IMG/VR virus record: IMGVR_UViG_3300035156_000063
From: a virus
Strand: one strand, 5' to 3'
DNA length: 51,865 nucleotides
A program made the translations under genes and the position numbers. Below are positions 1 through 51,865 of the stretch, piece after piece. The number at the start of each line of letters is the position of its first letter. Within the stretch, counting starts at the first letter, position 1. The notes beneath the pieces are model-generated. The model ran no database searches, was not told the DNA's origin, and saw only the letters and a program-made list of their open reading frames with translations.

Positions 1-127
1 GAACGTAGCGTTACGCTCTCGTTTGATTGAAGTGAGGAACCTGCGTTTCGATGAGTAGACCAGATTGAATCGGTATCCATCATCATGCAGGAAGACAGCG
101 TCAATAGCCATGATTGTACAACTTGCA
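1..127. repeat. Terminal overlap copy 1, identical to 51739-51865 (assembly closure or part of a terminal redundancy)
   Basis: Direct comparison of the two window ends shows 127/127 identity. The unique genome length is therefore 51738 bp. Confidence 0.97.
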
Positions 128-349
128 CCAGAAATCAAAACCCTGTGGGCTGTCTTGCCACACAAAAGAACCTTTCAAGGTAATCTTGGAGACCCCATTA
201 TCAAGAACCATAACTTCTGGTCCTATTTCCCGATACACCCTGTTCAACTCTTTTAGAAGTTGACTTGGGGTGATCTTGTCACGGACACGTTCAACTACAT
301 CCTTGTACAGATCGCTTTGCTTTACTGGTGTTGCTTTGAGGCGGGTCAT
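101..349 (-). CDS. Hypothetical protein, 82 aa
   Basis: ORF preceded by AAAGGAGAGCTATC-ATG, an initiation region shared with other leftward genes. Its stop overlaps the ATG of the next gene (the 60-aa ORF that crosses the window junction). Confidence 0.6.
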   Translation of the reverse strand: MTRLKATPVKQSDLYKDVVERVRDKITPSQLLKELNRVYREIGPEVMVLDNGVSKITLKGSFVWQDSPQGFDFWCKLYNHGY

Positions 350-368
350 GATAGCTCTCCTTTGGAGG

Positions 369-397
369 TTGACACCTGTATTGAAATCTCCTACATT
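369..397 (+). promoter_or_regulatory. Candidate sigma70-type promoter for 439-915 (TTGACA, 17-nt spacer, TACATT)
   Basis: TTGACA at 369-374, a 17-nt spacer, then TACATT at 392-397, about 40 nt upstream of the ATG at 439. The same bases read on the minus strand give TAATGTAGG (see motif finding), so the strand assignment is ambiguous. Confidence 0.4.
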
Positions 398-403
398 AGA
401 CGT

Positions 404-417
404 ACAGCATGTGCTGT
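404..417. promoter_or_regulatory. Perfect 14-bp palindrome ACAGCATGTGCTGT, candidate operator in a divergent control region
   Basis: The sequence is self-complementary. It lies between divergent genes (349<- and ->439), immediately downstream of the candidate -10. Confidence 0.45.
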
Positions 418-438
418 GTCACCTAATCGGAGATTGTT

Positions 439-915
439 ATGGCTAAGAAACCAGTTGTTGATCAAGACACCCTGTTGTCCGTGTTGAAGAAGCAAGGCGT
501 GGAGCTGTTTCACCAGCGCTCGGGCTTGCCATTAAATCAAGCACAACGTAACCTTGAAGGCCGCACCGAATACGTTAACGACAGCTCCCTCAAAGCGTTC
601 GTAGCCACGATACACAGTGTCTACGTTCTCAATGAGGGGTTGGTACTAGGCTTTGTCGAAAGCGTGCAGAAGGGGCCTTCCAAGGAGTCAGGGAGGGTGT
701 ATCGACCTGTCTTCTTCGACATCTTCGGGAACATCATCTACCGCACCGAACTTGAAGACAGCTACGAAACGCTCAGCAAAGCGCAAGTTGAATTCTTCAA
801 TAAAGCGGAAGACATTGATGCTGTCGCATCGACCCTTGAAGGGATCGAAAAGAAGTATGATGTATTAGAGAAACAACTGAAAGACTGGAAGAAATTCATG
901 GACACACTGGCCTAA
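439..915 (+). CDS. Hypothetical protein, 158 aa; the only rightward gene in this region
   Basis: ORF with a GGAG Shine-Dalgarno (cGGAGattgttATG), followed by a rho-independent terminator. Confidence 0.7.
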   Translation: MAKKPVVDQDTLLSVLKKQGVELFHQRSGLPLNQAQRNLEGRTEYVNDSSLKAFVATIHSVYVLNEGLVLGFVESVQKGPSKESGRVYRPVFFDIFGNIIYRTELEDSYETLSKAQVEFFNKAEDIDAVASTLEGIEKKYDVLEKQLKDWKKFMDTLA

Positions 916-961: not shown

Positions 962-1073
962 TTATGCGAGGGACAGTTTGCTATGTTCCATCCAGTATTT
1001 GGCACGCAGTGCCATCACTTTGATTCGTGTTTCGTATTTCGGGTAAAACAGGTGAATGAGTTCGTACACCATG

Positions 1074-1358
1074 TTACATCACACCTTGTGCTTGGAGGTC
1101 TTTGAACGTACGGAACGACAGATGGGCCGACCAGCCTTTTGCTTGGTCATGCGTCAGCTTCGGTGCGTTCTGTGCTGCCTTGATGATAGCGCTGCCCATA
1201 CGGGAGAAGCGAACAGCATCAGGGAAGGAGGTGGACAGGAATGCCGTCCGCATGGCGTTGTCCGTCGAGCCACCGATTGGTGCAGCATGACGCTTCACCA
1301 GCTTGCTGTTACGACGCTGGCCTTTGGAGATGTATTTAGCGCGGGATGCCTTAGCCAT
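1074..1358 (-). CDS. Hypothetical basic protein, 94 aa
   Basis: ORF preceded by AAAGGAACTATC-ATG. The N-terminus is Lys/Arg-rich. Confidence 0.6.
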   Translation of the reverse strand: MAKASRAKYISKGQRRNSKLVKRHAAPIGGSTDNAMRTAFLSTSFPDAVRFSRMGSAIIKAAQNAPKLTHDQAKGWSAHLSFRTFKDLQAQGVM

Positions 1359-1537
1359 GATAGTTCCTTTAGTGTTGGTGAGGGCTTACGTCCCCGATCC
1401 TTCGCATCAAAGTGCGATCCATCGAAAGATGCCTCGTTGCCGGATCAAAGTGTCCGAGGTAGGGTAATAGCTCAGTTCTATTCCCTATCCCTGAAACTTT
1501 GTCTACGTAGACGATGTAACTGTCTTCTGGTTGACCA

Positions 1538-1711
1538 CTACTGCGTTTGCTGGTTCATACGCTCACGCTTCCCCTTCTTCGTTGAATCGACCCAATGGCG
1601 TTTCCGCACCAGCCAATCCAAGAATAATACTAAACCGCCTCCTACCATCAGCAACAGCGACAATGTGGTAAGAGTGATGGCAATACCAACCCACATCTCC
1701 AATCCGCTCAT
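1538..1711 (-). CDS. Small membrane protein, about 57 aa (MSGLEMWVGIAITLTTLSLLLMVGGGLVLF...)
   Basis: The tracked ORF is 1538-1723. The ATG at 1711 overlaps the TGA of the upstream 44-aa ORF (ATGA coupling). The protein has one clear hydrophobic helix followed by a basic tail. Confidence 0.5.
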   Translation of the reverse strand: MSGLEMWVGIAITLTTLSLLLMVGGGLVLFLDWLVRKRHWVDSTKKGKRERMNQQTQ

Positions 1712-1842
1712 GCCTCCACCCACTTACCAGTGAGTACAAACATAGCCAGATAGAGAGGGAATCCCTTACCGAGCAAGTATTTAGCTGCTGGTTTGGTTCC
1801 GTATTGTCTTTGAATCTTCTTTGCCATAGTGCTGTGTGCCAT
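1708..1842 (-). CDS. Small hypothetical protein, 44 aa (MAHSTMAKKIQRQYGTKPAAKYLLGKGFPLYLAMFVLTGKWVEA); below the ORF-track cutoff
   Basis: Hand translation. Preceded by TTAGGAGCTATC-ATG, and its stop overlaps the next start. Confidence 0.45.
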   Translation of the reverse strand: MAHSTMAKKIQRQYGTKPAAKYLLGKGFPLYLAMFVLTGKWVEA

Positions 1843-2518: not shown

Positions 2519-2644
2519 TTAGATGTAGTGGATGTAAGAGAGAAGGGTTCTGGCGGTATGCCATTCTTCCCGGTTGATTGCACCTTTGCTATACATGTCA
2601 TAAAGCTCAAGTAAGGCATAGGTGTACTGCATACAAGTGAACAT
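2519..2644 (-). CDS. Small hypothetical protein, 41 aa (MFTCMQYTYALLELYDMYSKGAINREEWHTARTLLSYIHYI); first gene of the leftward early block
   Basis: Hand translation. It has a strong SD (CAAGGAGAGCTTA-ATG). Its 5' UTR is homologous to the UTR of the 1842 gene. Confidence 0.4.
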   Translation of the reverse strand: MFTCMQYTYALLELYDMYSKGAINREEWHTARTLLSYIHYI

Positions 2645-3736
2645 TAAGCTCTCCTTGATTGGTGGACTAGACCGGATTCGCACCGGCAGTGGGGCGGCTG
2701 CTTTATCCCCAGAAGAATTACGTGTCTGACACTACTATCTCTAGCCCGTTGACTGGGTATTCAGAAGGGCACTAGCTATGCTGGAAGCGAGGTTGGTTAC
2801 CGCCTTGACTTACAAGCTAATTACCCTTGTGAATACCGCATCCTATTAGTCTTCTACATCCAAGGTACTGACAAATCGTGATAGCTCGCTAGCTGTATGT
2901 GTGCTGCCTTGTTCACACAAAGGGAGCTGGTTTGCTATTAGGATTTGTACTCGACGGGATACGTATGATCGAAGAACAGGATGCAGTTTAGGTTGTTAAA
3001 GAATTTGATACCAAGCTGTAATTATCCATGTCAGTTGTAGACATGTGTCCGCTAACCATCGCTTCCCCTTGTGTCACATACACACACTCAAACACCATGC
3101 CACATGATGGAGACTGGCATGCGATGGCATAAGACAAGGCTTATGTTATTCCATCACTACCAGCACGACACATCATGTATTGATGTAAGGCTAGTGTGTA
3201 TCAAGGTTTGGCTACTGATAGCTCACTTGATATCTAAATTGTTAAAGAGGTAGTTCACACATCACGACGTTGTGTCGCTTATGTTTGGTCCTAACCATGC
3301 TCTGTTAGGCTTCCGGTATTACGTGATAGCTGTTCTGGCTTACGTTCATCTGTCTGCCCCTTGGGACTAAACACTTACTTGCCTAACCATAGATGCCAGT
3401 ATCGCATACTCTTTTGATCCTTGTCAACCCCTTATTTGTCCTGAGTCAATCTACATACAACAGGATGATAGCTCAGACACATACAGCATGCCCTCACATA
3501 TACATAAGAGGTTGGCTAGTTTAAGGAGCATTCAACATGAGGGGTTATCCTCTTCTCACTAAGCGTTGTGTCGGTGAGAGATTCCATTGTGCCTATGTAT
3601 TTGATCTGACGCAAGCATTATTTTGATCTGTGTCAATGATGCCACATCACATCCTCATCTCTATATGTATGTGCGCACGCATGTATACGCGATTAGCACA
3701 TCCCACATGATAGTGTCAACATATATCTTCCAACAC

Positions 3737-3758
3737 TTATCCACAAGGGTTATCCACA
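3737..3758 (+). promoter_or_regulatory. Two perfect direct DnaA boxes (TTATCCACA at 3737-3745 and 3750-3758)
   Basis: Both are exact matches to the 9-mer DnaA-box consensus TTATCCACA, starting 13 bp apart, inside the ORF-free region. Confidence 0.6.
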
Positions 3759-3919
3759 TGCCATTTAAAAGGCATTAGAGGCATCTACAAGGCACGCAAG
3801 GACGAGGATGAAGCAGCACCTTAGAAATAAATGGTGAGCTTGGAGACCCCTTAGAAGCCTTCCAATTGGATGAACATTTAGACAAGATAAGCTATAAGAC
3901 CTGCCTATTTATTAATCAA

Positions 3920-4002
3920 GTCTTATAGAAGACATGTCATTGGTCTTATAGAAGAGTGGAACAGGGTCTTATATAAGAGTTGTTGTAGGTCTTGTATAAG
4001 AC
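3920..4002. repeat. Four iterons with exact 23-bp phasing; 14-bp core GTCTT(A/G)TA(G/T)AAGA(C/G)
   Basis: Cores start at 3920, 3943, 3966 and 3989. The arms GTCTT/AAGAC are inverted repeats, and the 9-bp spacers are not conserved. A half-site TATAAGAC lies at 3893-3900. Confidence 0.85.
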
Positions 4003-4561
4003 TAGTAATGATAGCGCTAACAAGGGGTATTGCCGAAGGCGTTCATAGTAGATAGTTAACGTCGCTGCGCGACATGCATGCTAGGCATAGCGCCTGTAGG
4101 TACAGCAGGTGTGACACAAAGCATATGCTTGGCATGTATTGAGCATGGATGAATGTTAGGGAGCAAGTACATTGCACCGATCTATATAAGTTAGTATGCA
4201 CTTACATAATGCATGGCATATTGTGTGCTATTAGCAAGAAGCATGCCATGTCACTCTTCGCATAACCAGCATTATGTCAAATGCTCATATGGGTAGATGG
4301 AGGATCGAGCAAGGGGTAGGCAGGGGGTTCGATGATGTACTACTGTGTGCATTGCCCCTCAAAAATATCTCACAAAAATTATGCACATCCAAGGGTATGC
4401 CTCGGTATATGCTTGGATGGATACAAATATGCTTATACGTGTGCTTGCACACAAGAGCATTACGTCTTACGTAAGTAGGACAATTGTCCCGCAGGGACGT
4501 AACACAATGAATATACGTAGTATCTGTACGTATAGGGCGACATAACAAACCTAGGAACTAA

Positions 4562-7500
4562 ATGAAACTTGATTTAACAGATACCGCAGGCGGTTACGAC
4601 ATTAGCAGCATTAATAGCAACTTCACTAAGATTGAACAGGAGTTGCAGACTAAGGTGCTATATCGGAATAATCCAGTAGGGGAACCTAATACGATGGAAG
4701 GTGTTCTAGACATGAACAATCACTCCATCATCAATGTAGGTAATATGCAGGGAGGCACACTGGTAGGAGGTACAGCAGAATCTACCAGCTCCTTCCCATT
4801 TGGTCCCATCACTGCTACTAACGTACAAGATGCAATGGAGCAGATTAATGCCCGCATCATTGAAGGAGGGGGTACTGGTGGTACGCCATCTGGTGTGTTC
4901 ACCTTTAATAGCCGTACAGGGGATGTCCTTCTTACTAGTGGGGATGTGGTTACAGCTCTGGGCTTTACACCATCAGCAGGAGGAGGGGGAGGTTCAACAT
5001 CTGCCAATAGCGTATTGAATGTAGCAGCCCTCAGGACAGCTCCATCAGTAGGTGGCACTCAGATCATGACCCGAGGCTATTACACGGCTAGGGATGGTGG
5101 AGCAGCCACTTACTACCTCGATACTACGGATACTACCTCACCAGACAATGGTGGTGACGTCATCGTAGCAAGTGATGGTGGACGATGGAAGCTTGCTAAG
5201 GGAGTGGCTTACAGTGCACGTCAGTTTGGTGCACGAGGTAATAGCACCCTGTCCAGCCCCGGAGCAGATGACACAGTTGCCCTACAGCGCTTTGTTAACT
5301 TCCTTGGCACTGGTGGCTACAAGGGATACATTCCAGGCGGGCGCTATCGTATCACCAAGCGTATTAACATCGCTGACAACTGTTCTCTGTATGGAGATGG
5401 GTGGAAAGACATCCGAGACATCACAGGGTACAACACTCGTAACTGGGCACAGAGCAAAGTATACGGCACCATCATCTATTCCGACTATGTAGATACTGGT
5501 CCAGATACGGCAGTTACTTTCTACATCGAAGGTAATAGCTGCATCATTGAGGATATGGAGTTTGAGACGTTGCAGCCATTGCCGGGACCGGGATGGACTT
5601 GTAATAACACCCCTACCGCAATTTGGTGCTTCCGTGGCGAATACGCTGAACAGGGCGGTAATGGTCTGCTCCTGCGTAACATCATGATCCGTAATTACAA
5701 GAACGGTATTAAGATGATTGGCGCTGCTCGTGCCACCATTGATGGTCTGTTTGGTGAATGCTTCCATAACTTCGTTGACATCACTGCCAACTACGATGTG
5801 GTTCGTATTAACAACGTACACATCAACTTTCCGTTCTACTCTGGTAATTCAGAAGTGATTAAGTACCTCGGGGCCAACTCTGTTGGTATTACATTTGGGC
5901 GTGTAGACAACCCTGTGTGGTCCAACATCTTCATCTTCTACGCTCGTATCGCTATGAAGTTCTATACGGATACGACGCCTACAGGAGGCTTTGAAGGGGG
6001 TGTAACCCAGCGACTACAGATTACCAACCTCGGTATCGATCTGTGTAATGTGGGCTTCTACGCATCAGATGCTATTAGGCTGTCTCTTGCCAACTTCTAT
6101 GTACTGTGTCGCAATGACCCCACTGAGTCGTTTAACAGCACCAGTCGTTGTATTCACAATGCAGGTGTTCTTGGTGGCGGATACGTACCAATTAGTATGA
6201 ACTTGGTCAATGGAGACTTCCAAGGATCGGCTCTCGAATGTATGCGGTTTGACGTGCCGGGAGTAGTTAACCTGAGTAACGTAGTTATCCGTACCTTCAA
6301 TCTGGCTGGTACTGGTGCTCCTGCAATCTCGGTTGGTAATGGTGTTAAGGTGTTTGCTGCTAACGTAGCTCTGGAAGAGCCTAATTCGGCCCCTCTGTTC
6401 CAAGTGTTCGGCACTGGTACTTACAGCGACGCCCACTCGGGAAGTACCGGAGGAACTGGTTCTGGTGTGAGTTCGTTCAACACTCGCAGTGGCGCTGTTA
6501 CTCTTACTGGTACGGACATCGTCAATGCCATTGCAACGACTACGGTTCCTATTAACACCCCAAGCACTTTTAGGGCGACTAACAAAACCTTCCCGACTAC
6601 CGGAACTGGAACTGAGATTAGCTATGATCCTAACTTTTCCTCCGGATATCTGCTTGCATATGATCGAGGTACTAATACGTACAAAGACATGGCAATCAGT
6701 GGTAGGAACCTTACGTTCCAGTCTGGCACTGCTGGGGCTAACCAAGGCTCTTTTGACATCAATGGTAGATTCCTTCTGGGCTATGCTACAAGTATTGGTA
6801 GCCATAAGCTTCAAGTGGATGGTGAAGGATTCTTCTCAGGAGCGCTGTATGCCCTGACTCCTCCAACTAACACTACTGGTACTCGGGTAGCCACTTGTGA
6901 CTACGTGATTGCTAAGGTTGGTTCGGGAGGTGGGGGAGGGGGTGTTACTTCGTTTAATGGAAGAGCTGGTGCAGTAACTCTTACCAATACAGACGTTAAT
7001 GCCGCTTATGGAGCACAGCCCACTTTTACTGGATATCCGGCTATTCAAACAAGCATTGAGGGATTTGGAACTATTAGATCAACCAATACTAGCATTCCAT
7101 CGTCTGGTACTGGCATCGAGATTAGTTACAACTCCAGCCTTGTAGTGGGGTTCCTTACTTGCTATGACCGAAGCGCTGGTCAATATCGAGACTTGGGGAT
7201 CGCAGGTAGGAATGTAACCTTCCAATCTGGTAACGGGGCTAATGCGGCATCGTTTGATCAGAATGGCTCTTTGCTCATTGGTTATCCTAGCACTAATGGA
7301 AGTGGCTACAAGCTTCAAGTTAATAGCCAAATCTATGCGACGTCGGCATCCATTGCTACTTCGGACCGTAGCGTAAAAGAGAACATCTCTCCACTGAAGT
7401 CTGGACTGAAGGAGGTGATGAAACTAAAACCTGTGACCTATACGTTCGTAGAACATAAGGTTCACAACTTCCCTAAAGGTACACAAGTCGGATTTATCGC

Positions 7501-12923: not shown

Positions 12924-12970
12924 TTTAGACGAAATTTCCGATATTAGTATATACTAAGGATATAGTAAGT
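12914..12970 (+). promoter_or_regulatory. Conserved intergenic element, copy A (AAATGTATAGTTT..AAATTTCCGATA..CTAAG..GTAAG)
   Basis: Aligns by eye with 51545-51592 in the same orientation. The 13-mer AAATGTATAGTTT is shared exactly. Confidence 0.6.
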
Positions 12971-13073
12971 ATATAAGAATTACTAACTAACTATAATACT
13001 ACTAACAAATACAAATACTAATACTGACTATTCCTATATTTATAATTATATAGAGATAGTCTTTGACCTTCAT

Positions 13074-13144
13074 GCGTTCCTAGTTTAATGGTAGAACCCC
13101 TTCCTTCCAAGTAGGTGGTGAGAGTTCGATTCTCTCGGTACGCT
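13074..13144 (+). tRNA. tRNA-Gly (anticodon UCC)
   Basis: - Hand-folded cloverleaf: acceptor GCGTTCC/GGTACGC with one U-U mismatch.
- D stem GTTT/GAAC.
- Anticodon stem CCTTC/GTAGG with one mismatch, loop CTTCCAA.
- T arm GAGAG-TTCGATT-CTCTC.
- No encoded CCA. Confidence 0.65.
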
Positions 13145-13227
13145 CTTCTAATACGTAATACAGGGAAATCCCTTAATTGGGGAACGTTCAATACGTTCGT
13201 TACGTTCAATTCATATAAAGGATACTA

Positions 13228-19675: not shown

Positions 19676-22600
19676 ATGGACATTCTTGAAGAAAGCTTTG
19701 GGACAACTATGGAACCTGTTGAGTCCCTAGAGAATATGGTGGAGGTTCGTCCTGCTCCTACCTCTGGCTTCCCTCCTAATTCCGTTCGCAACAGAGCTGC
19801 CACCACTGCCATCTTGACGAGTGAGCCAGAGGAAATGGTAGAAAGATACCGCCTGATGATGCAGGAAGCTAGTGAAGGACAGGATGTAACGCATCAACAA
19901 GCAATGCAAGCAATTGCAGATCGCAATAAATCAGGCAGTATGAAACACGTAATTGGAATCCTTGGGGACCAGAACATCCCCTTGGACCAAAAGCGTAAGC
20001 TGATGAACTTCGTACAGACTACGGATTTCAAAGCCGAACCAGCCGTTGTTCTCCAATCCCAAGCCCTTGCTGCTGATAATAAAGGGGAAGACTTCCGGGG
20101 GGAAGCCGCTCGTATTAGCACTGCGGATGTAATGGGAGAGATGCAAGAGGAGCGTGAGAATCGTCAGAAGCTGATGAATGGCTTCATGGCCACTCTTCCT
20201 AGTGCTAATGCAGGTTTGATTGGAGATATGGCTGCTGCGGAGGTACTGCCCTTCGGACGTAATGCTATTGCGGCTAATGTCGCTAAGAGTGTTAATGAGA
20301 AGGCAGGTACTCCTACAGGCTTGGGTTCTTGGATTAAAAACTTCCTACTGCCGGGATCGACCAAGGCAGACCTTCAGGCAAAGCTGTTGTCTATTCCTCC
20401 TGAGAAGAGAGCTGAATATACTAAGAGCCTGCTTGGCGGTATTAAAGACAGCGCCAGTGTGTTCCATAACGAGAATTACTACGCTCAGTATTCGACAGCA
20501 GTGAACATCTTGGATCAGCCACAACACAGCAATGGGCAAATCTGGACAGAAAATATGATGACTGTCTTGGATGCTTTCTGGGTTGGTAGTGAAATCCGAG
20601 CAGCCAAGATCGGTATTGGTGGTGGTCTTAAGGCAGCCGAATTTGCTAATGCTACACAGAGCGCTAAGCAATCTGAAATGCTTCGTCTTGGATATGATGC
20701 CCCTGCGTCTGCTAAGGCACCAGCAGCAGGTAAGGATGCTCTCGACGAGATTATCAGCCGTAGCGCTAAATCCCCAATGCCTTCTAAGGAAGCAGCTAAT
20801 GTACAAAAACAGATTTCAAAGCTGGAAGCAGAGAGGGCTAGCCTATTAGGGGATGCAGGTAATTTAGCTGGTAAGGGAGATGTGGCATCTATGAGTGATG
20901 AGCTTAAAGCGCTCAATGCTAATAGGCCAGACTCTAGCGAGGCAGCTATTAACGCCTTGGCTAAAGAACTACAGGCTTCTAAGAAGTTGAAATATCAGGA
21001 TGCTAAAAAAGAAGCCAGCCGACAAATCCAAGATCAAGTTGTGGAGTTCGAGGGTAGGGTTGGTCATATTACTCAGCAAATTAGTGTTAACCGTACTTCA
21101 GCTACTGTAAGCCAAAGACTGGACGTGTTGGACAAGCAGATTGAAAATCTTAAGAAAGGTGCTGTTGCCTCTCCGGGGTTGAAGAATCCAATTGCTGAAT
21201 CCCTTGAGCGTATCAAGCTTAACTCTGTTGTACGTAGGGAGCATCCTGCTTCCCCTTACAGCATTGTGGAACAGGTGAATCCTGCTCAGGCCCGTTCTAT
21301 GCATCAGGCTATCTTGTCGGGATCGGATGAAGTGGCAGAAGCCCTCACCGGGATGAATCGGGAACAAGCACTGGCTAATAACATCTATCCGCAGGTTGGT
21401 GCGGAAAGCGGAAATGTTCTTAACAAAGTTAATCAGGAAGTGGTTGAGGCTTTGCAAAATACTGGGGCCACTCGATATACGGCCCAAGAGTTTGAGCAGA
21501 CAGTTGCTAATACGAAGAGGGATTTTCGTAATGCCACAGGATTAGAGATTAACGATTCTATGACCACGTTCCGAGTGAATGGGGATCATATTGCTATTGA
21601 TGCTCACTATTCTACGGCTGGAGGTTCTTTTGATAATGCAACAGCGGCACGAGAGCAGGCTAAATATGCCCTCCGAGGCTATGGCATTCGTGATGATGAG
21701 ATTGTCATTATGAAGAAGAAAGGATTGGACTACGTTCCTTACAATGATGGACCTGCTCCAGGATTTGTGAGAATGTACCATGGTGGTGCAAAGCCCGATG
21801 GTGCAAGATTTGTTTCTCCTGACTTTAAATATGCTAAAGAGTATGCTGAGAAATCAGGAAGTGCAGTACATTATGTTGACATTCCAGAAGGCCATTCTAA
21901 GCTTACTAAAGCTTTTGATGATTCCGGAACCAGTGTAAAGGCTCCCTATAACTCTTTTGAGGTTGATGAGGAACTCGCTAAAGGGTTTAAAGAATATGGT
22001 GTGTCTGAGCCTGGGGACTACATTGTCAAGGTTAAGACTAACCATGCTATCACAGACGGTCAGGTTGAAGAATGGAATCCTCTCAGTGTCAAGAGAAACT
22101 TTGTAGATCGTATTGGACAACTGACCAGTGAGAAGTACGGAAGTATGTCCGGTAATCTTTTTGATCCGGGTAGCATGCTACACCCTACTCTGACAGGCAG
22201 CGCCTCTACTGCTACAGACCAAGCTATTAATTTTGAGAACGTTCTTCTCAAGCCTATTAAGGAACTGCGTACTGAGTTTGCTTCCTTTGGCAGTGAAAGA
22301 ATGACCAAGCTGAATGAATACATTGTTGAGGCAAACGTAAAAGGAATGAAGCATGATCCTTTACAACTGGCCGCTCGTGGATTCAATCCTCAAGAGATTC
22401 AGAGCTTGAAGAAGTGGAATGACATCTGGGATGGTCACTACTATCTGGAAAACTATGACTTGGTTCGCACTCTGAATTCTCAAGGGTTCCAAGTGTTGGA
22501 GGCTAATGGGACTAAGATGTTTGGCCGTAACGTAAGCAAGAATCAGAATATCGGAAAGGTTTATGACCCTGCGATTGATGATGTTGCTGTCCTGACTAAA

Positions 22601-25060
22601 TCTGAGATGGATGACCTCTACAACAAAGGAGGCAGCTATGCTGTTCTTCGTAGACCGGTTGACATCAATGGCACTATGGTTGAACACATGATTGTTCGTA
22701 ACACCCCTACGGAATATCTTCGTAAGGTTAGGGATACGGATGCTGTTCTCAACTATCGTGAAGGCTACTACACGGTTAATTACAAAGCTCCTAAGTTCAT
22801 TGACGAACTACATACAGATGCGAGTGGCAAGGTTACTCGTAAGACTGTAGCAGTGGCTGGCAATACCGCAGACGCAGATATGTTCGTTAAGAGTCAAACC
22901 CAAGCATCTGGTATTCGTCATGAGATTCGTGAAGACACTAGAGGATTTAAGAAGGATGGAGATGGCTATTGGGATTTGAATGAAGCCAGTGGTCGTATTG
23001 CCCAGAGACGTCGTGGGAAACCCCTTACAGAGGCTACAGGTGTTAATCAGCTTGGTGGTGGTAGCTTTGTAGAAAATCCTATGGAAAGTGCTGTGAGGGC
23101 TGCTAAGAGCCTTGCTGGCCGTTCTGTTAGCCGTCCTGTGTTGGAGACAGCCAAGAAGCGCTTCATGGAGCAATATGGAGATATGCTTCCTCCTAACGGT
23201 ATGGGTGGTAAAGACTATCCTAAGAACATTTCTGAGATTGTTGACCACGTAAGTCATACTAGCAGCCAAGTAGCTGATGCTCGTACCACTTACGGATACA
23301 TCGAGTTCTTAGAGAATGGCTATATCAACATGGCAGATGAGGCATTCAAGGCAGGTATGAATGTTATTGCTGACACGCTTGGTAAGTTCCATCTGTCTAC
23401 CGGAGAGCGTGCTGCTCGTGCTGTAGGTGATCTTGCTCCTACTAACGTGGGCAAGGCCACTGTATTCCAAGCATACATTGCGATGTCTAATCCAATTCGT
23501 CAATGGATTGTGCAGAGCCACCAAGCAGGCCGCATGGTTGCTTACAACCCTAAAGGTGTTCTGAATGGCGGCTGGGCTTCTCGTATGTCTGGTTATTTGC
23601 AAGTGAGTGCGGGTATTGGTCAGCCAAGCAAGGCTGCTAAAGACTTCCATAAGTTTGTAACCGACAGCGGAATGGTTGCTGGTGTTGACCGTAACAGCTT
23701 GGTTCGTGGACTTGGATTGTCTATGGCGGATAGTTCTTCGGGAGTTAAACGAGCGGCTGGTAGTGTGATGTCTGTTCCACAAACTATCGGCTTTGATATT
23801 GGTGAGAAGGTTAATATGATGGGACACTTGGCTGCTGTCCATGAGAAATATACTCGCAAGGGTATTGACCTTATGAATAAAACCAATCGTGACCTTGCAT
23901 ACACCGAAGCTCGTGCACTCAGCTATGACTTGAATAAAGCTGGAGAACTCACTTACACGCAATCAACCATGGCAATGGCTGTTCAGTTCTTGCAGATGCC
24001 ACACAAGGCTATTCTTCAAGCTACCAATCGCAAGCTCCCTTTGAGTGTACGTATGCGTTTGATGGGCTGGGATATGCTGATGTGGGGTGCCCCTGTAGGT
24101 GTTGTGTCTTCTATGATGACTGCTGCGGGTGCTGACGGAGGTGACATTCTTCCTGATGATCCAGAACATCGTGAGATGTTTGTAGACGGAATGGAAGCAT
24201 GGGCACTTAATAAAGCAATCAACGATTTGGACGACAGCGATGAAGAAACTCGTATTGACTTTAGTGCTTTGGCTCCTAATGCTATGGATGGATGGGCGAG
24301 AATGTACACGGCGCTCCTTGATGATGGTTTCATGGGCATGGTTGCTGCTTCTCCTGCTGGTCAGTTGTTCGCAGTGGATGGGACCAATAACAGTCGGAGA
24401 AACGGTCGTATCCCCACGGCCATGAAAACCATGGGGCGCTATTTCAATGTGATTGATGAGATTGATCCTAACAATCCAACAGAGTTCGGTACGGTCTTGA
24501 ATGATGTAGCCAAGATTACCTCTGGATGGACTGCTGCTGACAATGCACTAATCATGCTTGAAACTCGTAAGAAGATGGACGGTCAAGGGGTTACAGTGGA
24601 TTCTAGTGTTACCACTCCTGAGATTGCAGCCGCCTTCTTGGGCTTTGGTACTAAGAGCACCAAGGAACTCTATGAGATTAGCAAGAGCCGCACCGCTGCT
24701 AAGAAACAGCATGACGAGGAAGTGATGCGTAAGTATCGTGACATTGTCTCTTATTACAAGCAAGAGCTGGGGAAAGACAATCCAGATGTGGAACACATCC
24801 AGAAAGTTACCAGCATGCTTATGCGTACCTTTGACGAACCGTATGATCGTAACCTTGTTCAACAACAATGGAAACGTGATCTGGAAGGCAAAGAACAAGC
24901 ACTGTTGGAGATGATGTTCAAGCACACTACCATGCCAAGCCGTAAGAGCATGGAAGATGACATCCGCAAGATGCCTGTCAGCGACAATGTAAAGAACCAG
25001 ATGATGGAACGTTACAGAAGCGTTAATCAGATTCGAGAAAACAATAAAGAAGAGGAATAA
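19676..25060 (+). CDS. Giant internal virion / ejection protein, 1794 aa
   Basis: The largest ORF, at the position equivalent to T7 gp15/gp16. The central segment MYHGG...FKYAKEYA... weakly resembles an ADP-ribosyltransferase core (see finding). Confidence 0.6.
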   Translation: MDILEESFGTTMEPVESLENMVEVRPAPTSGFPPNSVRNRAATTAILTSEPEEMVERYRLMMQEASEGQDVTHQQAMQAIADRNKSGSMKHVIGILGDQNIPLDQKRKLMNFVQTTDFKAEPAVVLQSQALAADNKGEDFRGEAARISTADVMGEMQEERENRQKLMNGFMATLPSANAGLIGDMAAAEVLPFGRNAIAANVAKSVNEKAGTPTGLGSWIKNFLLPGSTKADLQAKLLSIPPEKRAEYTKSLLGGIKDSASVFHNENYYAQYSTAVNILDQPQHSNGQIWTENMMTVLDAFWVGSEIRAAKIGIGGGLKAAEFANATQSAKQSEMLRLGYDAPASAKAPAAGKDALDEIISRSAKSPMPSKEAANVQKQISKLEAERASLLGDAGNLAGKGDVASMSDELKALNANRPDSSEAAINALAKELQASKKLKYQDAKKEASRQIQDQVVEFEGRVGHITQQISVNRTSATVSQRLDVLDKQIENLKKGAVASPGLKNPIAESLERIKLNSVVRREHPASPYSIVEQVNPAQARSMHQAILSGSDEVAEALTGMNREQALANNIYPQVGAESGNVLNKVNQEVVEALQNTGATRYTAQEFEQTVANTKRDFRNATGLEINDSMTTFRVNGDHIAIDAHYSTAGGSFDNATAAREQAKYALRGYGIRDDEIVIMKKKGLDYVPYNDGPAPGFVRMYHGGAKPDGARFVSPDFKYAKEYAEKSGSAVHYVDIPEGHSKLTKAFDDSGTSVKAPYNSFEVDEELAKGFKEYGVSEPGDYIVKVKTNHAITDGQVEEWNPLSVKRNFVDRIGQLTSEKYGSMSGNLFDPGSMLHPTLTGSASTATDQAINFENVLLKPIKELRTEFASFGSERMTKLNEYIVEANVKGMKHDPLQLAARGFNPQEIQSLKKWNDIWDGHYYLENYDLVRTLNSQGFQVLEANGTKMFGRNVSKNQNIGKVYDPAIDDVAVLTKSEMDDLYNKGGSYAVLRRPVDINGTMVEHMIVRNTPTEYLRKVRDTDAVLNYREGYYTVNYKAPKFIDELHTDASGKVTRKTVAVAGNTADADMFVKSQTQASGIRHEIREDTRGFKKDGDGYWDLNEASGRIAQRRRGKPLTEATGVNQLGGGSFVENPMESAVRAAKSLAGRSVSRPVLETAKKRFMEQYGDMLPPNGMGGKDYPKNISEIVDHVSHTSSQVADARTTYGYIEFLENGYINMADEAFKAGMNVIADTLGKFHLSTGERAARAVGDLAPTNVGKATVFQAYIAMSNPIRQWIVQSHQAGRMVAYNPKGVLNGGWASRMSGYLQVSAGIGQPSKAAKDFHKFVTDSGMVAGVDRNSLVRGLGLSMADSSSGVKRAAGSVMSVPQTIGFDIGEKVNMMGHLAAVHEKYTRKGIDLMNKTNRDLAYTEARALSYDLNKAGELTYTQSTMAMAVQFLQMPHKAILQATNRKLPLSVRMRLMGWDMLMWGAPVGVVSSMMTAAGADGGDILPDDPEHREMFVDGMEAWALNKAINDLDDSDEETRIDFSALAPNAMDGWARMYTALLDDGFMGMVAASPAGQLFAVDGTNNSRRNGRIPTAMKTMGRYFNVIDEIDPNNPTEFGTVLNDVAKITSGWTAADNALIMLETRKKMDGQGVTVDSSVTTPEIAAAFLGFGTKSTKELYEISKSRTAAKKQHDEEVMRKYRDIVSYYKQELGKDNPDVEHIQKVTSMLMRTFDEPYDRNLVQQQWKRDLEGKEQALLEMMFKHTTMPSRKSMEDDIRKMPVSDNVKNQMMERYRSVNQIRENNKEEE

Positions 25061-40758: not shown

Positions 40759-40976
40759 TCTTCGGGATACTCTCTAATCATCTCAAGAATTGTTAGTGCC
40801 TTGCTTTGGCATTCCCGATTGAGGCGTTCACATCGAGCTTCTAGCTCTTTGACAATACGCTCATGGTCTTCATAAAGAACAAATCCACCATAAGGATGTT
40901 TCCCCCCTTGAATAACAACCCTCTCTTCCTCATTAACAGGAGGGGGTTGAAAACGATACCGCTTAATCTGTTCCAT
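40755..40976 (-). CDS. Hypothetical protein, 73 aa
   Basis: ORF overlapping both neighbours. Confidence 0.55.
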   Translation of the reverse strand: MEQIKRYRFQPPPVNEEERVVIQGGKHPYGGFVLYEDHERIVKELEARCERLNRECQSKALTILEMIREYPEE

Positions 40977-41433
40977 AAATCTCCTTCAATTCCTCACGAA
41001 ACCTACGAATGATTTGGTGGCAGTTGGAATACGTATATTCCGTAAGCTCTGACACCTCCTTAGCTGTGTATCCTTGGTTGAAATGATAGTGCAGAACATC
41101 CTTGGAGACAGGGCTTTTAGTGTCAATCAACACACCAATCTCTGCGACCATCTGCTCACTAAACTGATTGCAAATGGTTCCCTCTTGCTCCTCTTCTTCG
41201 AAGGAGACCGCAATATGCCCCTTCTCCAAGTTCTTCTGCTCTTTGAGACAGTTGTTGAGGATGCGCTTCAACCAAACATCAAAGGGGAATTTAGGATCAT
41301 AGCTCTTATAATATTTAAGAGCACGAGCATATGCTTCCTGAACCACATCCTCAGCCGCATCCCCAGCACGAAATGACATGCGCTTGACCAGATTAAAATG
41401 ATTCTTACGGTAATGCTCTTCAATTAATACCAT
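40963..41433 (-). CDS. ECF-like (group 4) sigma factor, 156 aa
   Basis: Region-2-like AEDVVQEAYARALKYY...FDVWLKRILNNCLKEQ and region-4 HTH-like YTAKEVSELTEYTYSNCHQIIRRFREEL. Confidence 0.75.
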   Translation of the reverse strand: MVLIEEHYRKNHFNLVKRMSFRAGDAAEDVVQEAYARALKYYKSYDPKFPFDVWLKRILNNCLKEQKNLEKGHIAVSFEEEEQEGTICNQFSEQMVAEIGVLIDTKSPVSKDVLHYHFNQGYTAKEVSELTEYTYSNCHQIIRRFREELKEIYGTD

Positions 41434-45710: not shown

Positions 45711-46299
45711 AGTTGTTCATCAGAAGGGTTGTGAGGTGGGTAAAGGCGGGGTGGAACTCAATGGCATCTGGGCTTTTTGCGTTAAGCTTAACCATACCGA
45801 CATGCTGAGTTTTGTAAAACACATTGCCACGGTTGTCCACTGCGAACTGCCGATCAAAAGCCATAGCAGACACACCAGATTGTACTTCTTGCAGTGCTTC
45901 TTCGAAGCTTGGGTATTTTCCCATGATGCAGTCGCCAAGTTCGATGCAATCCAGCTCTTTAACCTTGGTCATGGCTTGCATGGCCCCACGAGGATATGGC
46001 AGCTCGGGGAGAGTTGCAACATTTAAGTTTTCCTTGCTCAAACCTGTCTTATAGCGCCGAATTGGGTTACGAGTCAGGTAAAGGCAAGAGCCTTGAATAT
46101 TAATGAAGCCCAGACGCTGCATTGGGGCGGTCCAGTTGTCTTCATCGATCTTGATGCGTGATTCCCGCTGAGTAAGCAGGTTCCTTACCAAGGCCGTGCA
46201 ATCCCGGCTGATGTGGATGATGTTGTACGGCTTGTTCTTGTACATGCTCACCGTGTTGTCGAACATCTGGCACAGGTCATCATGCGATGCTTTAGGCAT
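45679..46299 (-). CDS. Hypothetical protein, 206 aa, within the ligase island
   Basis: ORF overlapping both neighbours. No motif recognised. Confidence 0.6.
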   Translation of the reverse strand: MPKASHDDLCQMFDNTVSMYKNKPYNIIHISRDCTALVRNLLTQRESRIKIDEDNWTAPMQRLGFINIQGSCLYLTRNPIRRYKTGLSKENLNVATLPELPYPRGAMQAMTKVKELDCIELGDCIMGKYPSFEEALQEVQSGVSAMAFDRQFAVDNRGNVFYKTQHVGMVKLNAKSPDAIEFHPAFTHLTTLLMNNYEKILPISGS

Positions 46300-48442: not shown

Positions 48443-48469
48443 ATTGAGTCCTTGTTATCTAGATTTGGG

Positions 48470-48545
48470 TGCTAGTGGTGAGAATCGAACTCACACATTT
48501 CCCGGTCTTTTAGGCCAGAGCCTCTACCTGTTCGGCCACACTAGC
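48470..48545 (-). tRNA. tRNA-like gene with type-II-style D arm and aberrant anticodon arm (anticodon reads AAA in a 7-nt loop, or a 9-nt loop)
   Basis: - Perfect acceptor stem GCTAGTG/CACTAGC.
- D arm GCC-GAACAGGTAGA-GGC.
- T arm GTGAG-TTCGATT-CTCAC.
- Anticodon stem CTGGC/ACCGG with a C-A mismatch, loop CTAAAAG.
- 7-nt variable region. Confidence 0.55.
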
Positions 48546-48551
48546 TTTGAT

Positions 48552-48628
48552 TGGTCTCACCTACTGGATTTGAACCAGTGACCCACAGCTTAGAAGGCTG
48601 TTGCTCTATCCATCTGAGCTAAGGTGAG
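48552..48628 (-). tRNA. tRNA-Arg (anticodon UCU), CCA encoded
   Basis: - Acceptor stem CTCACCT/AGGTGAG.
- D arm GCTC-AGATGGATA-GAGC.
- Anticodon arm ACAGC-CTTCTAA-GCTGT.
- T arm ACTGG-TTCAAAT-CCAGT.
- 3' end ACCA. Confidence 0.85.
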
Positions 48629-51523: not shown

Positions 51524-51544
51524 TTCTACTCCTATTTATCAAAT

Positions 51545-51592
51545 AAATGTATAGTTTTGGCTTAAATTCCGATACTAAGCTATGTAAGCGTA
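51545..51592 (+). promoter_or_regulatory. Conserved intergenic element, copy B
   Basis: AAATGTATAGTTTTGGCTTAAATTCCGATACTAAGCTATGTAAG aligns with copy A. Confidence 0.6.
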
Positions 51593-51666
51593 AGCGGGCG
51601 CAGCACATAGTATGAATAACTATCTATATACTAACTACAATATACTAACTTACTCCTAATATACTA

Positions 51667-51849
51667 TTACAACCTCCTGTATTCAGGAAGGTTAGAAGGA
51701 CGGATGATATATTGGAGTTCGAAGTCAACAGCTTCGACGAACGTAGCGTTACGCTCTCGTTTGATTGAAGTGAGGAACCTGCGTTTCGATGAGTAGACCA
51801 GATTGAATCGGTATCCATCATCATGCAGGAAGACAGCGTCAATAGCCAT
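51667..51849 (-). CDS. Hypothetical protein, 60 aa; runs through the artificial window junction
   Basis: Its ATG (51849, equivalent to position 111) overlaps the stop of the 101-349 gene. This confirms genome continuity across the window ends. Confidence 0.5.
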   Translation of the reverse strand: MAIDAVFLHDDGYRFNLVYSSKRRFLTSIKRERNATFVEAVDFELQYIIRPSNLPEYRRL

Positions 51850-51865
51850 GATTGTACAACTTGCA
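51739..51865. repeat. Terminal overlap copy 2, identical to 1-127
   Basis: Direct comparison of the two window ends. Confidence 0.97.

What the first reader, a model, noticed from the sequence alone, without database searches (positions are those of the whole stretch)
2645..4561. ~1.9 kb with no credible ORF between the divergent early and late operons
In an otherwise tightly packed genome with many overlapping genes, this stretch has stops in all six frames. The only tracked ORFs (3071-3253, 4274-4548) are His/Cys/Met-rich and have no SD.

The stretch is full of short recurring words:
- GATAGCTC/G at 2880, 3217, 3325 and 3467.
- CTAACCAT at 3052, 3291 and 3383.
- CATGTATTGA at 3174 and 4133.
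- ATATGCTTGG at 4121 and 4407.
- ACACATACAGC on opposite strands at about 2895 and 3477.
- DnaA boxes and iterons (separate findings).

Candidate roles are a replication origin, an array of promoters or operators, the physical genome ends, non-coding RNAs, or decayed early genes. A virulent phage keeping about 4% of its genome non-coding suggests the region is functional.
Basis: seen in the sequence. Interest (0 to 1): 0.7.

Follow-up and report, generated by a model that had tools for sequence, protein, structure and literature searches.

The report
Phage genome-end region, collapsed by assembly
The 1.9 kb gene-free stretch is most likely the region around the physical ends of a T7-related marine-type podophage genome, joined into a circle by the assembler; it carries a predicted terminal repeat, the start signals of the early and late genes and an origin-like module, an arrangement already described for this phage family.

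Summary
Positions 2645-4561 are the only long ORF-free stretch in this roughly 51.7 kb circularly assembled phage genome. It lies between a leftward early gene block and the rightward structural block.

The phage belongs to the Zobellviridae (T7 supergroup, no phage RNA polymerase). In VpV262 and ICBM1 the mapped direct terminal repeats sit in this same inter-module gap, and the record of Pseudomonas phage O4 carries a 74-bp terminal redundancy there.

In those three records the repeat boundary falls in a composite motif. A G-rich box lies inside the repeat, a GTGCAtTGCAC-type palindrome sits at the boundary, and an A/T-rich box lies just outside. The window has this motif once (4311-4382) and a second palindrome copy 180 nt upstream (4167-4178). 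This predicts a terminal repeat at about 4174-4353.

The rest of the gap holds:
- one strong, conserved leftward sigma-70 promoter (3427-3398) with a 745-nt leader;
- a cassette of two DnaA boxes plus four repeats (3737-4002);
- a conserved hairpin-rich late leader.

Decayed genes, recoded genes and Rfam RNAs are not supported. This is a new member of a known kind, of modest interest. The termini and the origin are predictions and have not been shown.

The parts
2645..4561 (.). Whole ORF-free inter-module region. It is interpreted as the collapsed terminal (concatemer-junction) region.
   Evidence: Searches show no credible ORF. Syntenic gaps of 1-2 kb occur in relatives.
2519..2644 (-). First leftward small ORF (41 aa) with a GGAGAG ribosome-binding site. 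It marks the left edge of the gap.
3398..3427 (-). Strong sigma-70-type early promoter: TTGACA, an 18-nt spacer, then TGc-GATACT.
   Evidence: It is the best-scoring promoter in the gap. The -35 box, the extended -10 box and the initial transcribed sequence are conserved in L010 and L011.
2645..3390 (-). Predicted 745-nt untranslated leader of the leftward early transcript. Transcription here is inferred, not shown.
   Evidence: Inference from the promoter position and the absence of ORFs.
3046..3250 (.). Conserved ~200-nt non-coding block, bracketed by TTGTTAAAGA at 2993 and 3239. It is a candidate structured RNA or a cluster of protein-binding sites.
   Evidence: It is 69% identical to L009. 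Profile searches find it also in L057, L060 and L210. Indels are not multiples of three. Covariation is weak, from two effective lineages.
3737..3758 (+). Two perfect DnaA boxes (TTATCCACA) starting 13 nt apart. They are the only perfect boxes in the genome.
   Evidence: The same pair with the same spacing occurs in L010. There is family-wide enrichment at this relative position.
3892..4002 (+). Repeat array. Four 13-14-nt units GTCTTATAGAAGA(C), each close to a palindrome, start at 3920, 3943, 3966 and 3989 (23-nt spacing). An inverted partial copy lies at 3892-3903.
   Evidence: Together with the DnaA boxes it is conserved as a cassette in L010, L144 and L006/L029.
4167..4178 (.). Upstream copy of the palindromic boundary motif, GTACATT|GCACC. 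This is the predicted early-side boundary of the terminal repeat.
   Evidence: CATTGCACCGATC is invariant in the window, L009 and L210. A second copy lies 85-180 nt upstream of the main motif in 14 of 84 family loci, against 0-1 in control windows. The same arrangement occurs in O4 and TC6.
4174..4353 (.). Predicted direct terminal repeat, about 180 bp, present once because the assembly is circular.
   Evidence: Inference from motif homology to mapped or recorded repeats: VpV262 138 bp, ICBM1 172 bp and O4 74 bp. It has not been verified on reads.
4311..4329 (+). G-rich box AAGGGGTAGGCAGGGGGTT, inside the predicted repeat near its late-side end.
   Evidence: Conserved in about 100 distinct viral and metagenome loci. 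It matches in position the conserved G+C-rich 5' end of cobavirus terminal repeats (PMC6775973; ICBM1 sequence).
4347..4358 (.). Main copy of the palindromic motif, GTGCATT|GCCCC. This is the predicted terminase cut site and late-side repeat boundary (4353|4354).
   Evidence: One copy per genome. The mapped or recorded repeat boundaries of VpV262, ICBM1 and O4 fall at the equivalent position.
4360..4382 (+). A/T-rich box CAAAAATATCTCACAAAAATTAT, just outside the predicted repeat and pointing at the late genes. It is a candidate late promoter, a packaging recognition site, or both.
   Evidence: Its invariant positions are conserved across the family. It is unique in the window even with 2 mismatches allowed. 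It is duplicated in tandem in L010 and L020 and on both sides of an inserted endonuclease gene in O4.
4386..4561 (+). Late-operon leader with five inverted repeats or hairpins (4386-4419, 4429-4460, 4464-4481, 4486-4498, 4512-4534). The ribosome-binding site AGGAA lies at 4553-4557.
   Evidence: Predicted RNA energy is -56.6 kcal/mol, z = -3.2. Positions 4483-4545 are almost identical in L009, with the differences in loops.

Best explanation
The gap is the terminal region of a linear Zobellviridae podophage genome. This family belongs to the T7 supergroup and has no phage RNA polymerase. A circular assembly has joined the two ends and collapsed the direct terminal repeat (DTR) into one copy.

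**What the sequence and comparisons show**
- The phage has the family's two-arm gene layout.
- The gap is syntenic with the gap that holds the DTR in VpV262 and ICBM1, and the terminal redundancy of the O4 record.
- The window carries, once per genome, the same composite motif that spans the DTR boundary in those phages: a G-rich box, a palindrome GTGCAtTGCAC and an A/T-rich box. A second palindrome copy lies 180 nt upstream.

**What is inferred**
- Terminase cuts concatemers at the two palindromes, at about 4173|4174 and 4353|4354. This would give virion DNA with a repeat of about 180 bp at each end.
- One end then reads DTR, A/T box, hairpin-rich leader, late genes.
- The other end reads DTR, repeat array, DnaA boxes, the strong leftward sigma-70 promoter (about 950 nt from the end), a 745-nt leader, early genes.
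- By analogy with T7, the early end would enter the cell first, and host RNA polymerase starting at that promoter would express the early genes and perhaps help draw in the DNA.
- The cassette of DnaA boxes and repeats would recruit host DnaA and an unidentified phage DNA-binding protein to start or control replication.
- The A/T box would be the late promoter, possibly read by the phage's own sigma-70-family factor (40963-41433), and/or a terminase recognition site.
For: **Family and layout.** TerL is 68-69% identical to Zobellviridae isolates. Gene order matches Pseudomonas phage O4, including the sigma factor next to the primase/helicase and the amidoligase cluster.

**The ends lie in this gap in relatives.**
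- VpV262 has a terminal repeat annotated at 1-138 and 45874-46012, flanked by 0.9 kb and 0.75-1.05 kb of mostly ORF-free DNA between the early and late arms.
- ICBM1 has a 172-bp DTR with 738 nt of non-coding DNA before its first early gene.
- The literature reports DTRs in VpV262, RIO-1 and ICBM1-3. It also reports an ORF-free region between the modules of SIO1 that is homologous to DTRs, and a conserved G+C-rich 5' end on the DTRs (PMC6775973).

**The boundary lies in the motif.**
- VpV262: GGAGA|CACACCTCGAATATTTCT.
- ICBM1: G-box...GTACAAC|ACACAAAAATATTTACTAACAGAAATTCT.
- O4: a 74-bp terminal redundancy bounded by GTGCAAT|ACACCC and GTGCAT|TGACCC.
- The TC6 record ends fall between its two palindrome copies.
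- The 1.235.O and PS32B.1 records end 102 and 36 nt upstream of the G-box.

**The motif across the family.** It occurs once per genome in 36 held loci, the window included, and in at least 120 metagenome contigs, some of which are chance matches without the G-box. About 100 distinct loci also carry the G-box. A second palindrome lies 85-180 nt upstream in 14 of 84 loci, against 0-1 in control windows. Both predicted boundaries and an internal element are invariant in the window, L009 and L210.

**Other parts.** The early promoter is conserved. Perfect DnaA boxes number 28 where 0.9 are expected upstream of the motif in 101 loci, against 8 (4.6 expected) in the rest of those loci. The DnaA-box and repeat cassette is conserved. 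The late leader is predicted to be structured.
Against: - No reads or virion DNA are available, so the termini and the repeat length in this genome are predictions.
- The early-side boundary rests on a second palindrome copy that only about 17% of family loci show under a strict pattern. The start of the 1.235.O record does not show it.
- O4's 74-bp redundancy is not annotated as a DTR and could in principle be an assembly overlap. Its palindromic boundaries argue against that.
- VpV262's TerL is only 42% identical to the window's, and its A/T box is a weak match.
- No Rep-type initiator was found. The repeat units are themselves palindromic, which suits a dimeric regulator as well as an initiator.
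- Only one strong sigma-70 promoter was found, and such sites are not enriched over coding DNA.
- Nearly half of the gap (2645-3045 and 3430-3730) has no conserved or assigned element.
Confidence: 0.75

Rival explanations
1. The whole stretch is mainly a replication origin. Host DnaA binds the two boxes, a phage initiator binds the repeats, and the flanking DNA serves as unwinding and control sequence.
For: Two perfect DnaA boxes, the only ones in the genome, lie near four regularly spaced repeats. The cassette is conserved in L010, L144 and L006/L029. DnaA boxes are about 30-fold enriched at this relative position across the family. The lowest G+C of the genome is at 3501-4000.
Against: The cassette covers only about 300 of 1917 nt. 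The nearest relative, L009, keeps a 1.8 kb gap with no DnaA boxes and no match to the repeat cassette. No initiator gene was recognised. The best-conserved elements of the gap are the terminal-repeat motif and the leaders, not the cassette.
Confidence: 0.12
2. The conserved motif at 4311-4382 is only the late promoter and its control sites, and the genome is circularly permuted. The gap would then be a purely transcriptional control region between divergent operons.
For: The motif always points at the late genes and lies 35-250 nt upstream of the first one. The A/T box is duplicated in tandem (L010, L020) and flanks an inserted gene in O4, as promoters do. The phage encodes a sigma-70-family factor.
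Against: The mapped or annotated repeat boundaries in VpV262 and ICBM1, and the terminal redundancy in O4, fall at the palindrome. The motif occurs once per genome although the late arm is 26 kb. No sigma homologue was found in VpV262 with a simple two-sequence profile, and the cobavirus paper never mentions a sigma factor, yet both groups have the boxes next to their terminal repeat. A promoter role for the A/T box is compatible with the main explanation and does not replace it.
Confidence: 0.1
3. The stretch encodes one or more non-coding RNAs, for example the conserved 200-nt block at 3046-3250 or the hairpin-rich 4386-4545, that act in host takeover or in regulation.
For: The block at 3046-3250 is conserved in five loci with indels that break reading frames. 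The consensus fold on the minus strand includes some compensatory pairs. A terminator-like hairpin lies at 3265-3277. The late leader folds better than shuffled sequence, z = -3.2.
Against: No Rfam family reaches its threshold, and the weak hits are implausible. The covariation comes from only two effective lineages and the consensus energies are low. Conserved islands could equally be protein-binding sites in DNA. These elements explain only part of the region.
Confidence: 0.15
4. The stretch consists of recently decayed early genes, or of genes read with another genetic code.
For: Some relatives carry small genes in parts of their gaps: an RMF homologue in L009, a 103-aa ORF in L010, ORF9 in L001, and ORFA plus tRNA-Pro in VpV262. 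The word GAGCTATCA forms the ribosome-binding context of two real genes (starts at 349 and 1842) and recurs without a start codon in the gap.
Against: ORF-free gaps of 1-2 kb at this position are the rule across the family. Translated searches find no remnants of the relatives' small ORFs. Reading through any one stop codon gives at most 122 codons. Window-to-L009 indels are not in threes. Pfam finds nothing.
Confidence: 0.03

Closest known systems
Terminal region of Vibrio phage VpV262 (AY095314; Vipivirus, Zobellviridae)
   Same: Early and late arms diverge from about 2 kb of mostly ORF-free DNA that contains the terminal repeat. A G/C-rich box lies inside the repeat, and an A/T-rich ...ACCTCGAATATTTCT... 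box abuts it on the late side. The repeat boundaries are two-fold symmetric.
   Different: TerL is only 42% identical. The repeat is 138 bp, against about 180 bp predicted here. VpV262 has ORFA and a tRNA-Pro on the late side. No sigma factor was detected in it. The core-motif profile gives only a weak match in it (E = 0.25), and the DnaA/iteron block of the window finds nothing there.
Terminal repeats of cobaviruses (Lentibacter phages ICBM1-3 and SIO1; Bischoff et al. 2019, PMC6775973)
   Same: Short DTRs (159-173 bp) lie in an ORF-free region between the two genome arms. They have a conserved G+C-rich 5' end, and the DTR sequence is conserved among related phages. The ICBM1 boundary GTACAAC|ACAC followed by AAAAATATTTACTAACAGAAATTCT aligns with window 4347-4382.
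   Different: This is a different subfamily with 40-kb genomes. The paper never mentions a sigma factor. In ICBM1 the termini were mapped with PacBio reads; here they are only predicted.
Pseudomonas phages O4 and TC6 (Paundecimvirus, Zobellviridae)
   Same: Gene order is the same, including the sigma factor and the amidoligase cluster. The record ends lie in the inter-arm gap. O4 has a 74-bp terminal redundancy bounded by two copies of the palindrome, with the G-box inside and the A/T box outside.
   Different: The gap is shorter (about 0.8 kb) and the repeat is shorter. There are no perfect DnaA boxes in the O4 junction. O4 has an endonuclease gene inserted after the A/T box.
Left end and concatemer junction of phage T7 (from my own knowledge, not checked here)
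   Same: A short DTR is followed by several hundred base pairs of non-coding DNA with host-polymerase early promoters before the first gene. Concatemers are processed at the repeat boundaries.
   Different: In T7 all genes share one orientation, three strong early promoters are present, T7 has its own RNA polymerase, and its origin does not depend on DnaA.
Iteron and DnaA-box origins of plasmids and of phage P1 (oriR) (from my own knowledge, not checked here)
   Same: Paired consensus DnaA boxes lie next to an array of regularly spaced repeats and an A/T-rich stretch.
   Different: No Rep gene was recognised nearby. The repeat units are palindromic rather than asymmetric. The host is a lytic T7-type phage with its own primase/helicase and polymerase.

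Membership tests
Zobellviridae-type terminal region with a short direct terminal repeat | The genome is a Zobellviridae-type podophage with two opposed arms and no phage RNA polymerase. | tested here: met
   TerL, portal, primase/helicase and DNA polymerase were identified, and the layout matches. Gene order matches O4. No RNA polymerase appeared among the ORFs that were scanned; several large late-arm ORFs were not scanned.
Zobellviridae-type terminal region with a short direct terminal repeat | The ORF-free region lies between the starts of the early and late arms, where relatives have their DTR. | tested here: met
   Window layout. VpV262, ICBM1, O4, and the statement about SIO1 in PMC6775973.
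Zobellviridae-type terminal region with a short direct terminal repeat | Sequence homologous to the boundary of mapped DTRs: a G/C-rich box inside, a boundary motif, and an A/T box outside. | tested here: met
   Window 4311-4382 compared with VpV262, ICBM1 and O4. Family alignments.
Zobellviridae-type terminal region with a short direct terminal repeat | The sequence is actually duplicated at both ends of virion DNA (fixed termini, doubled coverage). | not testable with these tools
   Only a circular assembly with a 127-nt overlap is available. There are no reads.
Iteron/DnaA-box replication origin | Clustered consensus DnaA boxes. | tested here: met
   Two perfect boxes at 3737 and 3750, the only perfect ones in the genome. 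Family-wide enrichment.
Iteron/DnaA-box replication origin | An array of at least three regularly spaced direct repeats. | tested here: met
   Four units with 23-nt spacing, conserved in L010, L144 and L029. The units are themselves near-palindromes, which is not typical of iterons.
Iteron/DnaA-box replication origin | A cognate initiator (Rep) gene in the genome, usually adjacent. | tested here: not met
   The flanking small proteins have no Pfam match and only one weak PHROG match, to a family of unknown function. Other early proteins are assigned to other functions. An unrecognised initiator cannot be excluded.
Iteron/DnaA-box replication origin | Replication initiates there. | not testable with these tools
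   This needs marker-frequency, 2D-gel or plasmid-maintenance assays.
Known non-coding RNA family (Rfam) | A match at or above the family's gathering score. | tested here: not met
   Only three tRNAs elsewhere in the window reach threshold. In the gap the best E-values are 0.33-3.8, far below the gathering scores.
Pseudogenised or recoded protein genes | Translated similarity to intact homologues, frame-preserving conservation, or long ORFs under another genetic code. | tested here: not met
Array of host-polymerase early promoters (as T7 A1-A3) | Several strong sigma-70 promoters in one orientation. | tested here: not met
   Only one site scores at least 10, at 3427-3398 on the minus strand. 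The count does not exceed that of coding DNA.

The most novel reading that the evidence does not exclude
Two readings go beyond what I found described for this family.

1. The palindrome pair, G-box and A/T box form a family-wide packaging and late-expression signal. It would allow the physical termini of uncultivated Zobellviridae to be read from sequence alone.
2. A plasmid-like cassette of host DnaA boxes and palindromic repeats is shared by only some relatives and is absent from the closest one, as if it were exchangeable. It sits in the DNA predicted to enter the cell first and would act as a DnaA-dependent origin or control switch in a lytic T7-type phage that carries its own replisome.

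The unexplained excess of alternating purine-pyrimidine sequence in this sub-clade's terminal region could be part of the same function.
Probability: 0.3. Interest if true: 0.55.

Novelty: new member of a known kind. Interest (0 to 1): 0.3.

Why it matters
The result turns a puzzling 4% of the genome into a testable map: predicted termini, cut sites, one early promoter, a late promoter or packaging box, and an origin-like cassette.

For metagenome-derived Zobellviridae, the conserved boundary motif gives a way to place the true genome ends and orient the genomes without reads. At least 120 public contigs match the pattern, and about 100 distinct loci also carry the G-box.

The recurrent DnaA boxes suggest that these polymerase-less T7 relatives use a host initiator. 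That would be of interest for how they start replication, but it has not been shown.

Tried and rejected
- **DNA similarity to isolates.** Megablast and blastn of the region against 50,697 phage records found nothing. The region is too diverged at the DNA level from every isolate, so homology had to be found through flanking proteins and motifs.
- **RNA families.** Rfam searches at gathering and at permissive thresholds gave no credible RNA family.
- **Literature.** Searches for a described non-coding region in Zobellviridae, VpV262, RIO-1 or TC6 gave nothing directly. The cobavirus paper was the useful one.
- **Flanking 206-aa protein as a handle.** It found only one viral locus.
- **Repeat array as terminase small-subunit sites.** TerS identity follows TerL phylogeny and does not track which genomes share the cassette.
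- **Array of promoters.** Rejected.
Only the CTAACCAT copy at 3383 sits at a promoter. The copies at 3052 and 3291 have no promoter upstream (and reading of the sequence).
- **Alternative genetic codes and decayed genes.** Rejected.
- **Contig ends as evidence of termini.** Many contigs end near the motif, but assembly breaks at variable DNA would do the same. This was not used.
- **Sigma factor as a discriminator for the A/T box.** Inconclusive.
Full report
**1. The observation**

The window is a complete, circularly assembled phage genome. Its first 127 bases repeat at the end. Positions 2645-4561 contain no ORF longer than 87 aa in any frame. This is the only stretch of at least 400 nt without an ORF of at least 70 aa.

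The stretch is bounded on the left by a 41-aa minus-strand ORF with a good ribosome-binding site (start at 2644). On the right it is bounded by the 1035-aa tail-fibre gene (start at 4562).

Identical 8-mers recur about twice as often as in shuffles: 87 pairs against 38.8 +/- 7.8. The pseudo-ORFs have no Pfam match. Reading through any one stop codon does not open a long frame.

**2. What genome this is**

PHROG and Pfam scans give a tail fibre, endolysin, large terminase and portal on the plus strand (4562-31066). On the minus strand they give a primase/helicase, DNA polymerase, exonucleases, ribonucleotide reductase, thymidylate synthase, an amidoligase/glutamine-amidotransferase cluster and a sigma-70-family factor (51523-31416).

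TerL is 68-69% identical to Zobellviridae isolates and oyster-metagenome phages. Gene order matches Pseudomonas phage O4. This family belongs to the T7 supergroup but lacks a phage RNA polymerase (PMC6775973).

**3. The gap is a family trait**

ORF-free gaps of 1-2 kb lie between the leftward early genes and the rightward block containing the terminase gene in many relatives. They are seen in PQ867843, in many IMG/VR contigs, and in Vibrio phages 1.235.O and PS32B.1, VpV262, ICBM1 and O4.

Some relatives carry a small gene in part of the gap. L009 has a ribosome-modulation-factor homologue, and VpV262 has ORFA and a tRNA-Pro. The window holds no remnants of these. Indels between the window and its nearest relative L009 are not in threes. 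Gene decay is rejected.

**4. The genome ends lie here in relatives**

The cobavirus paper states that VpV262 and RIO-1 have direct terminal repeats (DTRs) and that ICBM1-3 have 159-173-bp DTRs. It also states that SIO1 has an ORF-free region exactly between its two gene modules that is about 80% identical to those DTRs, and that the 5' ends of the DTRs carry a conserved G+C-rich region.

The VpV262 record annotates a 138-bp repeat at both ends, with 0.9 kb of non-coding DNA before the early genes and 0.75-1.05 kb before the late genes. ICBM1 annotates a 172-bp DTR.

**5. A conserved boundary motif**

Most of the window's gap cannot be aligned to relatives. One block of about 70 nt (4311-4382) is conserved at 75-90% in phages whose TerL is only 67-86% identical. 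Its sequence is:

AAGGGGTAGGCAGGGGGTT, then about 17 nt, then GTGCATTGCCCCT, then CAAAAATATCTCACAAAAATTAT

A degenerate pattern built on its invariant positions occurs exactly once per locus in 36 held loci, the window included. It occurs in at least 120 metagenome contigs; some of these lack the G-box and are chance matches. About 100 distinct loci also carry the G-box.

In the orientation with the late genes to the right:
- The mapped VpV262 repeat ends ...CCCCTATCAAGGGGGAAG...GGAGA|CACACCTCGAATATTTCT.
- The PacBio-mapped ICBM1 repeat ends ...TAGGGGCGGGAAGGGGGGTTAGGGGGTGG...GTACAAC|ACACAAAAATATTTACTAACAGAAATTCT.
- The O4 record has a 74-bp terminal redundancy bounded by GTGCAAT|ACACCC on one side and GTGCAT|TGACCC on the other.
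- The TC6 record ends fall between its two copies.

So the G-box lies inside the repeat, the boundary lies at the centre of the palindrome, and the A/T box lies just outside.

The window has a second palindrome copy, GTACATT|GCACC, at 4167-4178. A second copy 85-180 nt upstream occurs in 14 of 84 family loci, against 0-1 in control windows. CATTGCACCGATC is invariant in the window, L009 and L210.

I therefore predict a DTR of about 180 bp at 4174-4353, collapsed to one copy by the circular assembly. This is an inference from homology. No reads were available.

**6. The early side (2645-4173)**

There is one strong sigma-70 promoter. It points left: TTGACA, 18 nt, TGc-GATACT, at 3427-3398. Its hexamers and its initial transcribed sequence are conserved in L010 and L011.

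A 745-nt ORF-free leader follows. Within it, a 200-nt block (3046-3250) is conserved in five loci. Covariation there is weak, from two effective lineages. It may be a structured RNA or a set of DNA sites, and this is unresolved.

Between the promoter and the predicted repeat lies a cassette of two perfect DnaA boxes and four regularly spaced near-palindromic 13-14-mers. The boxes are the only perfect ones in the genome. The cassette is conserved in L010, L144 and L006/L029 but is absent from L009.

Across 101 family loci, perfect DnaA boxes are about 30-fold enriched in the 2 kb upstream of the motif. There are 28 where 0.9 are expected, against 8 where 4.6 are expected in the rest of those loci.

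No initiator gene was recognised, and TerS similarity does not track the cassette. An origin or DnaA-dependent control element is the likeliest reading, but it is not shown.

**7. The late side (4354-4561)**

The A/T box is unique in the genome even with two mismatches allowed. It is duplicated in tandem in L010 and L020, and on both sides of an inserted endonuclease gene in O4. That behaviour is promoter-like.

The phage encodes a sigma-70-family factor that is conserved in the closer relatives. I found no homologue in VpV262 with a simple profile, and the cobavirus paper never mentions a sigma factor. Whether the box is a sigma-specific late promoter, a terminase recognition site or both remains open.

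The leader that follows has five hairpins or inverted repeats (z = -3.2). It is nearly identical in L009, with the differences falling in loops.

**8. Mechanism proposed**

Steps marked as inference rest on the T7 paradigm, which I recall from memory and did not test here.
- Concatemers are cut at the two palindromes, giving linear DNA with the repeat at both ends.
- Packaging starts next to the A/T box.
- The last-packaged, early end enters the cell first. It presents the DnaA and repeat cassette and the early promoter, about 950 nt from the end, to host proteins.
- Late transcription starts at the A/T box.

**9. Unexplained**

The gap is rich in alternating purine-pyrimidine sequence. 21.7% of its bases lie in alternating runs of at least 6 nt, against 7.6 +/- 1.9% in coding windows. 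The same is true in L009 and L010 but not in VpV262 or ICBM1. This explains the His/Cys/Met-rich pseudo-ORFs and may reflect the many short palindromes. No function is established.

About 0.7 kb (2645-3045 and 3430-3730) has no assigned element.

**10. Verdict**

The finding is real. It is largely explained by biology already described for this family: the ORF-free inter-arm region that holds the DTR. It is a new member of a known kind.

The family-wide cut-site motif and the recurrent DnaA boxes are useful additions that I did not find described in the papers I could search. Interest is modest.

Noticed in passing
window 1-127 and 51739-51865: The first and last 127 bases are identical. The window is a circular assembly whose overlap looks like a k-mer overlap; the unique length is about 51,738 bp and the start point is arbitrary (inside a coding region).
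   Followed up: yes
window 40963-41433 (-): A 156-aa sigma-70-family factor (Pfam Sigma70_r2 above cut-off, weak r4) lies next to the primase/helicase. It is conserved in Pseudomonas PA11/O4/TC6-type phages, CW02, CVT22 and Vibrio 1.235.O. Its promoter specificity is unknown.
   Followed up: partly
window 2645-4561; also L009 833-2644 and L010 4548-6318: There is a strong excess of alternating purine-pyrimidine sequence and of words such as ACACA, CATGC and ATGCCA/TGGCAT in the terminal region of this sub-clade. It is absent from the terminal regions of VpV262 and ICBM1. No explanation was found.
   Followed up: partly
window 51524-51738, tandem repeat at 51617-51650: A second, smaller intergenic region lies upstream of the 397-aa minus-strand gene. 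It has 2.3 copies of a ~14-nt unit (TAACTATCTATATAC-like). It is possibly another promoter or operator region.
   Followed up: no
window 349-439 and ORFs 439-915 (+), 1056-1733 (+): Two plus-strand ORFs with no Pfam or PHROG match are embedded in the otherwise leftward early block. They diverge from the 82-aa minus-strand ORF across a 90-nt spacer that contains a TTGACA.
   Followed up: no
window 48468-48628 (-) and 13074-13145 (+): There are three tRNA genes. Arg(tct) and one that ARAGORN calls Phe with the unusual anticodon AAA sit in the early arm. Gly(tcc) sits in a 556-nt intergenic stretch of the late arm that also has small tandem repeats (12949-13025, 13184-13210).
   Followed up: no
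L009 972-1187 (-): The nearest relative carries a 71-aa ribosome modulation factor homologue (Pfam RMF, 35.6 bits, cut-off 27.9) at the early edge of its gap. The window has no trace of it.
   Followed up: partly
L224/L225 (Pseudomonas phage O4, NC_031274) record 1-700: An endonuclease gene (gp01) is inserted right after the A/T box, and a second copy of the A/T box follows the gene. TC6 lacks the insertion. It looks like a homing-endonuclease cassette that duplicated the box.
   Followed up: partly
The same word recurs four times in the gap without a start codon. The copy at 3217 lies in a conserved island (AGCTATCAGTAG).
   Followed up: partly
window 19676-25060 (+): A 1794-aa late protein matches only a PHROG of unknown function (phrog_18427, E = 7e-245). 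By position it is probably an internal virion or ejection protein.
   Followed up: no
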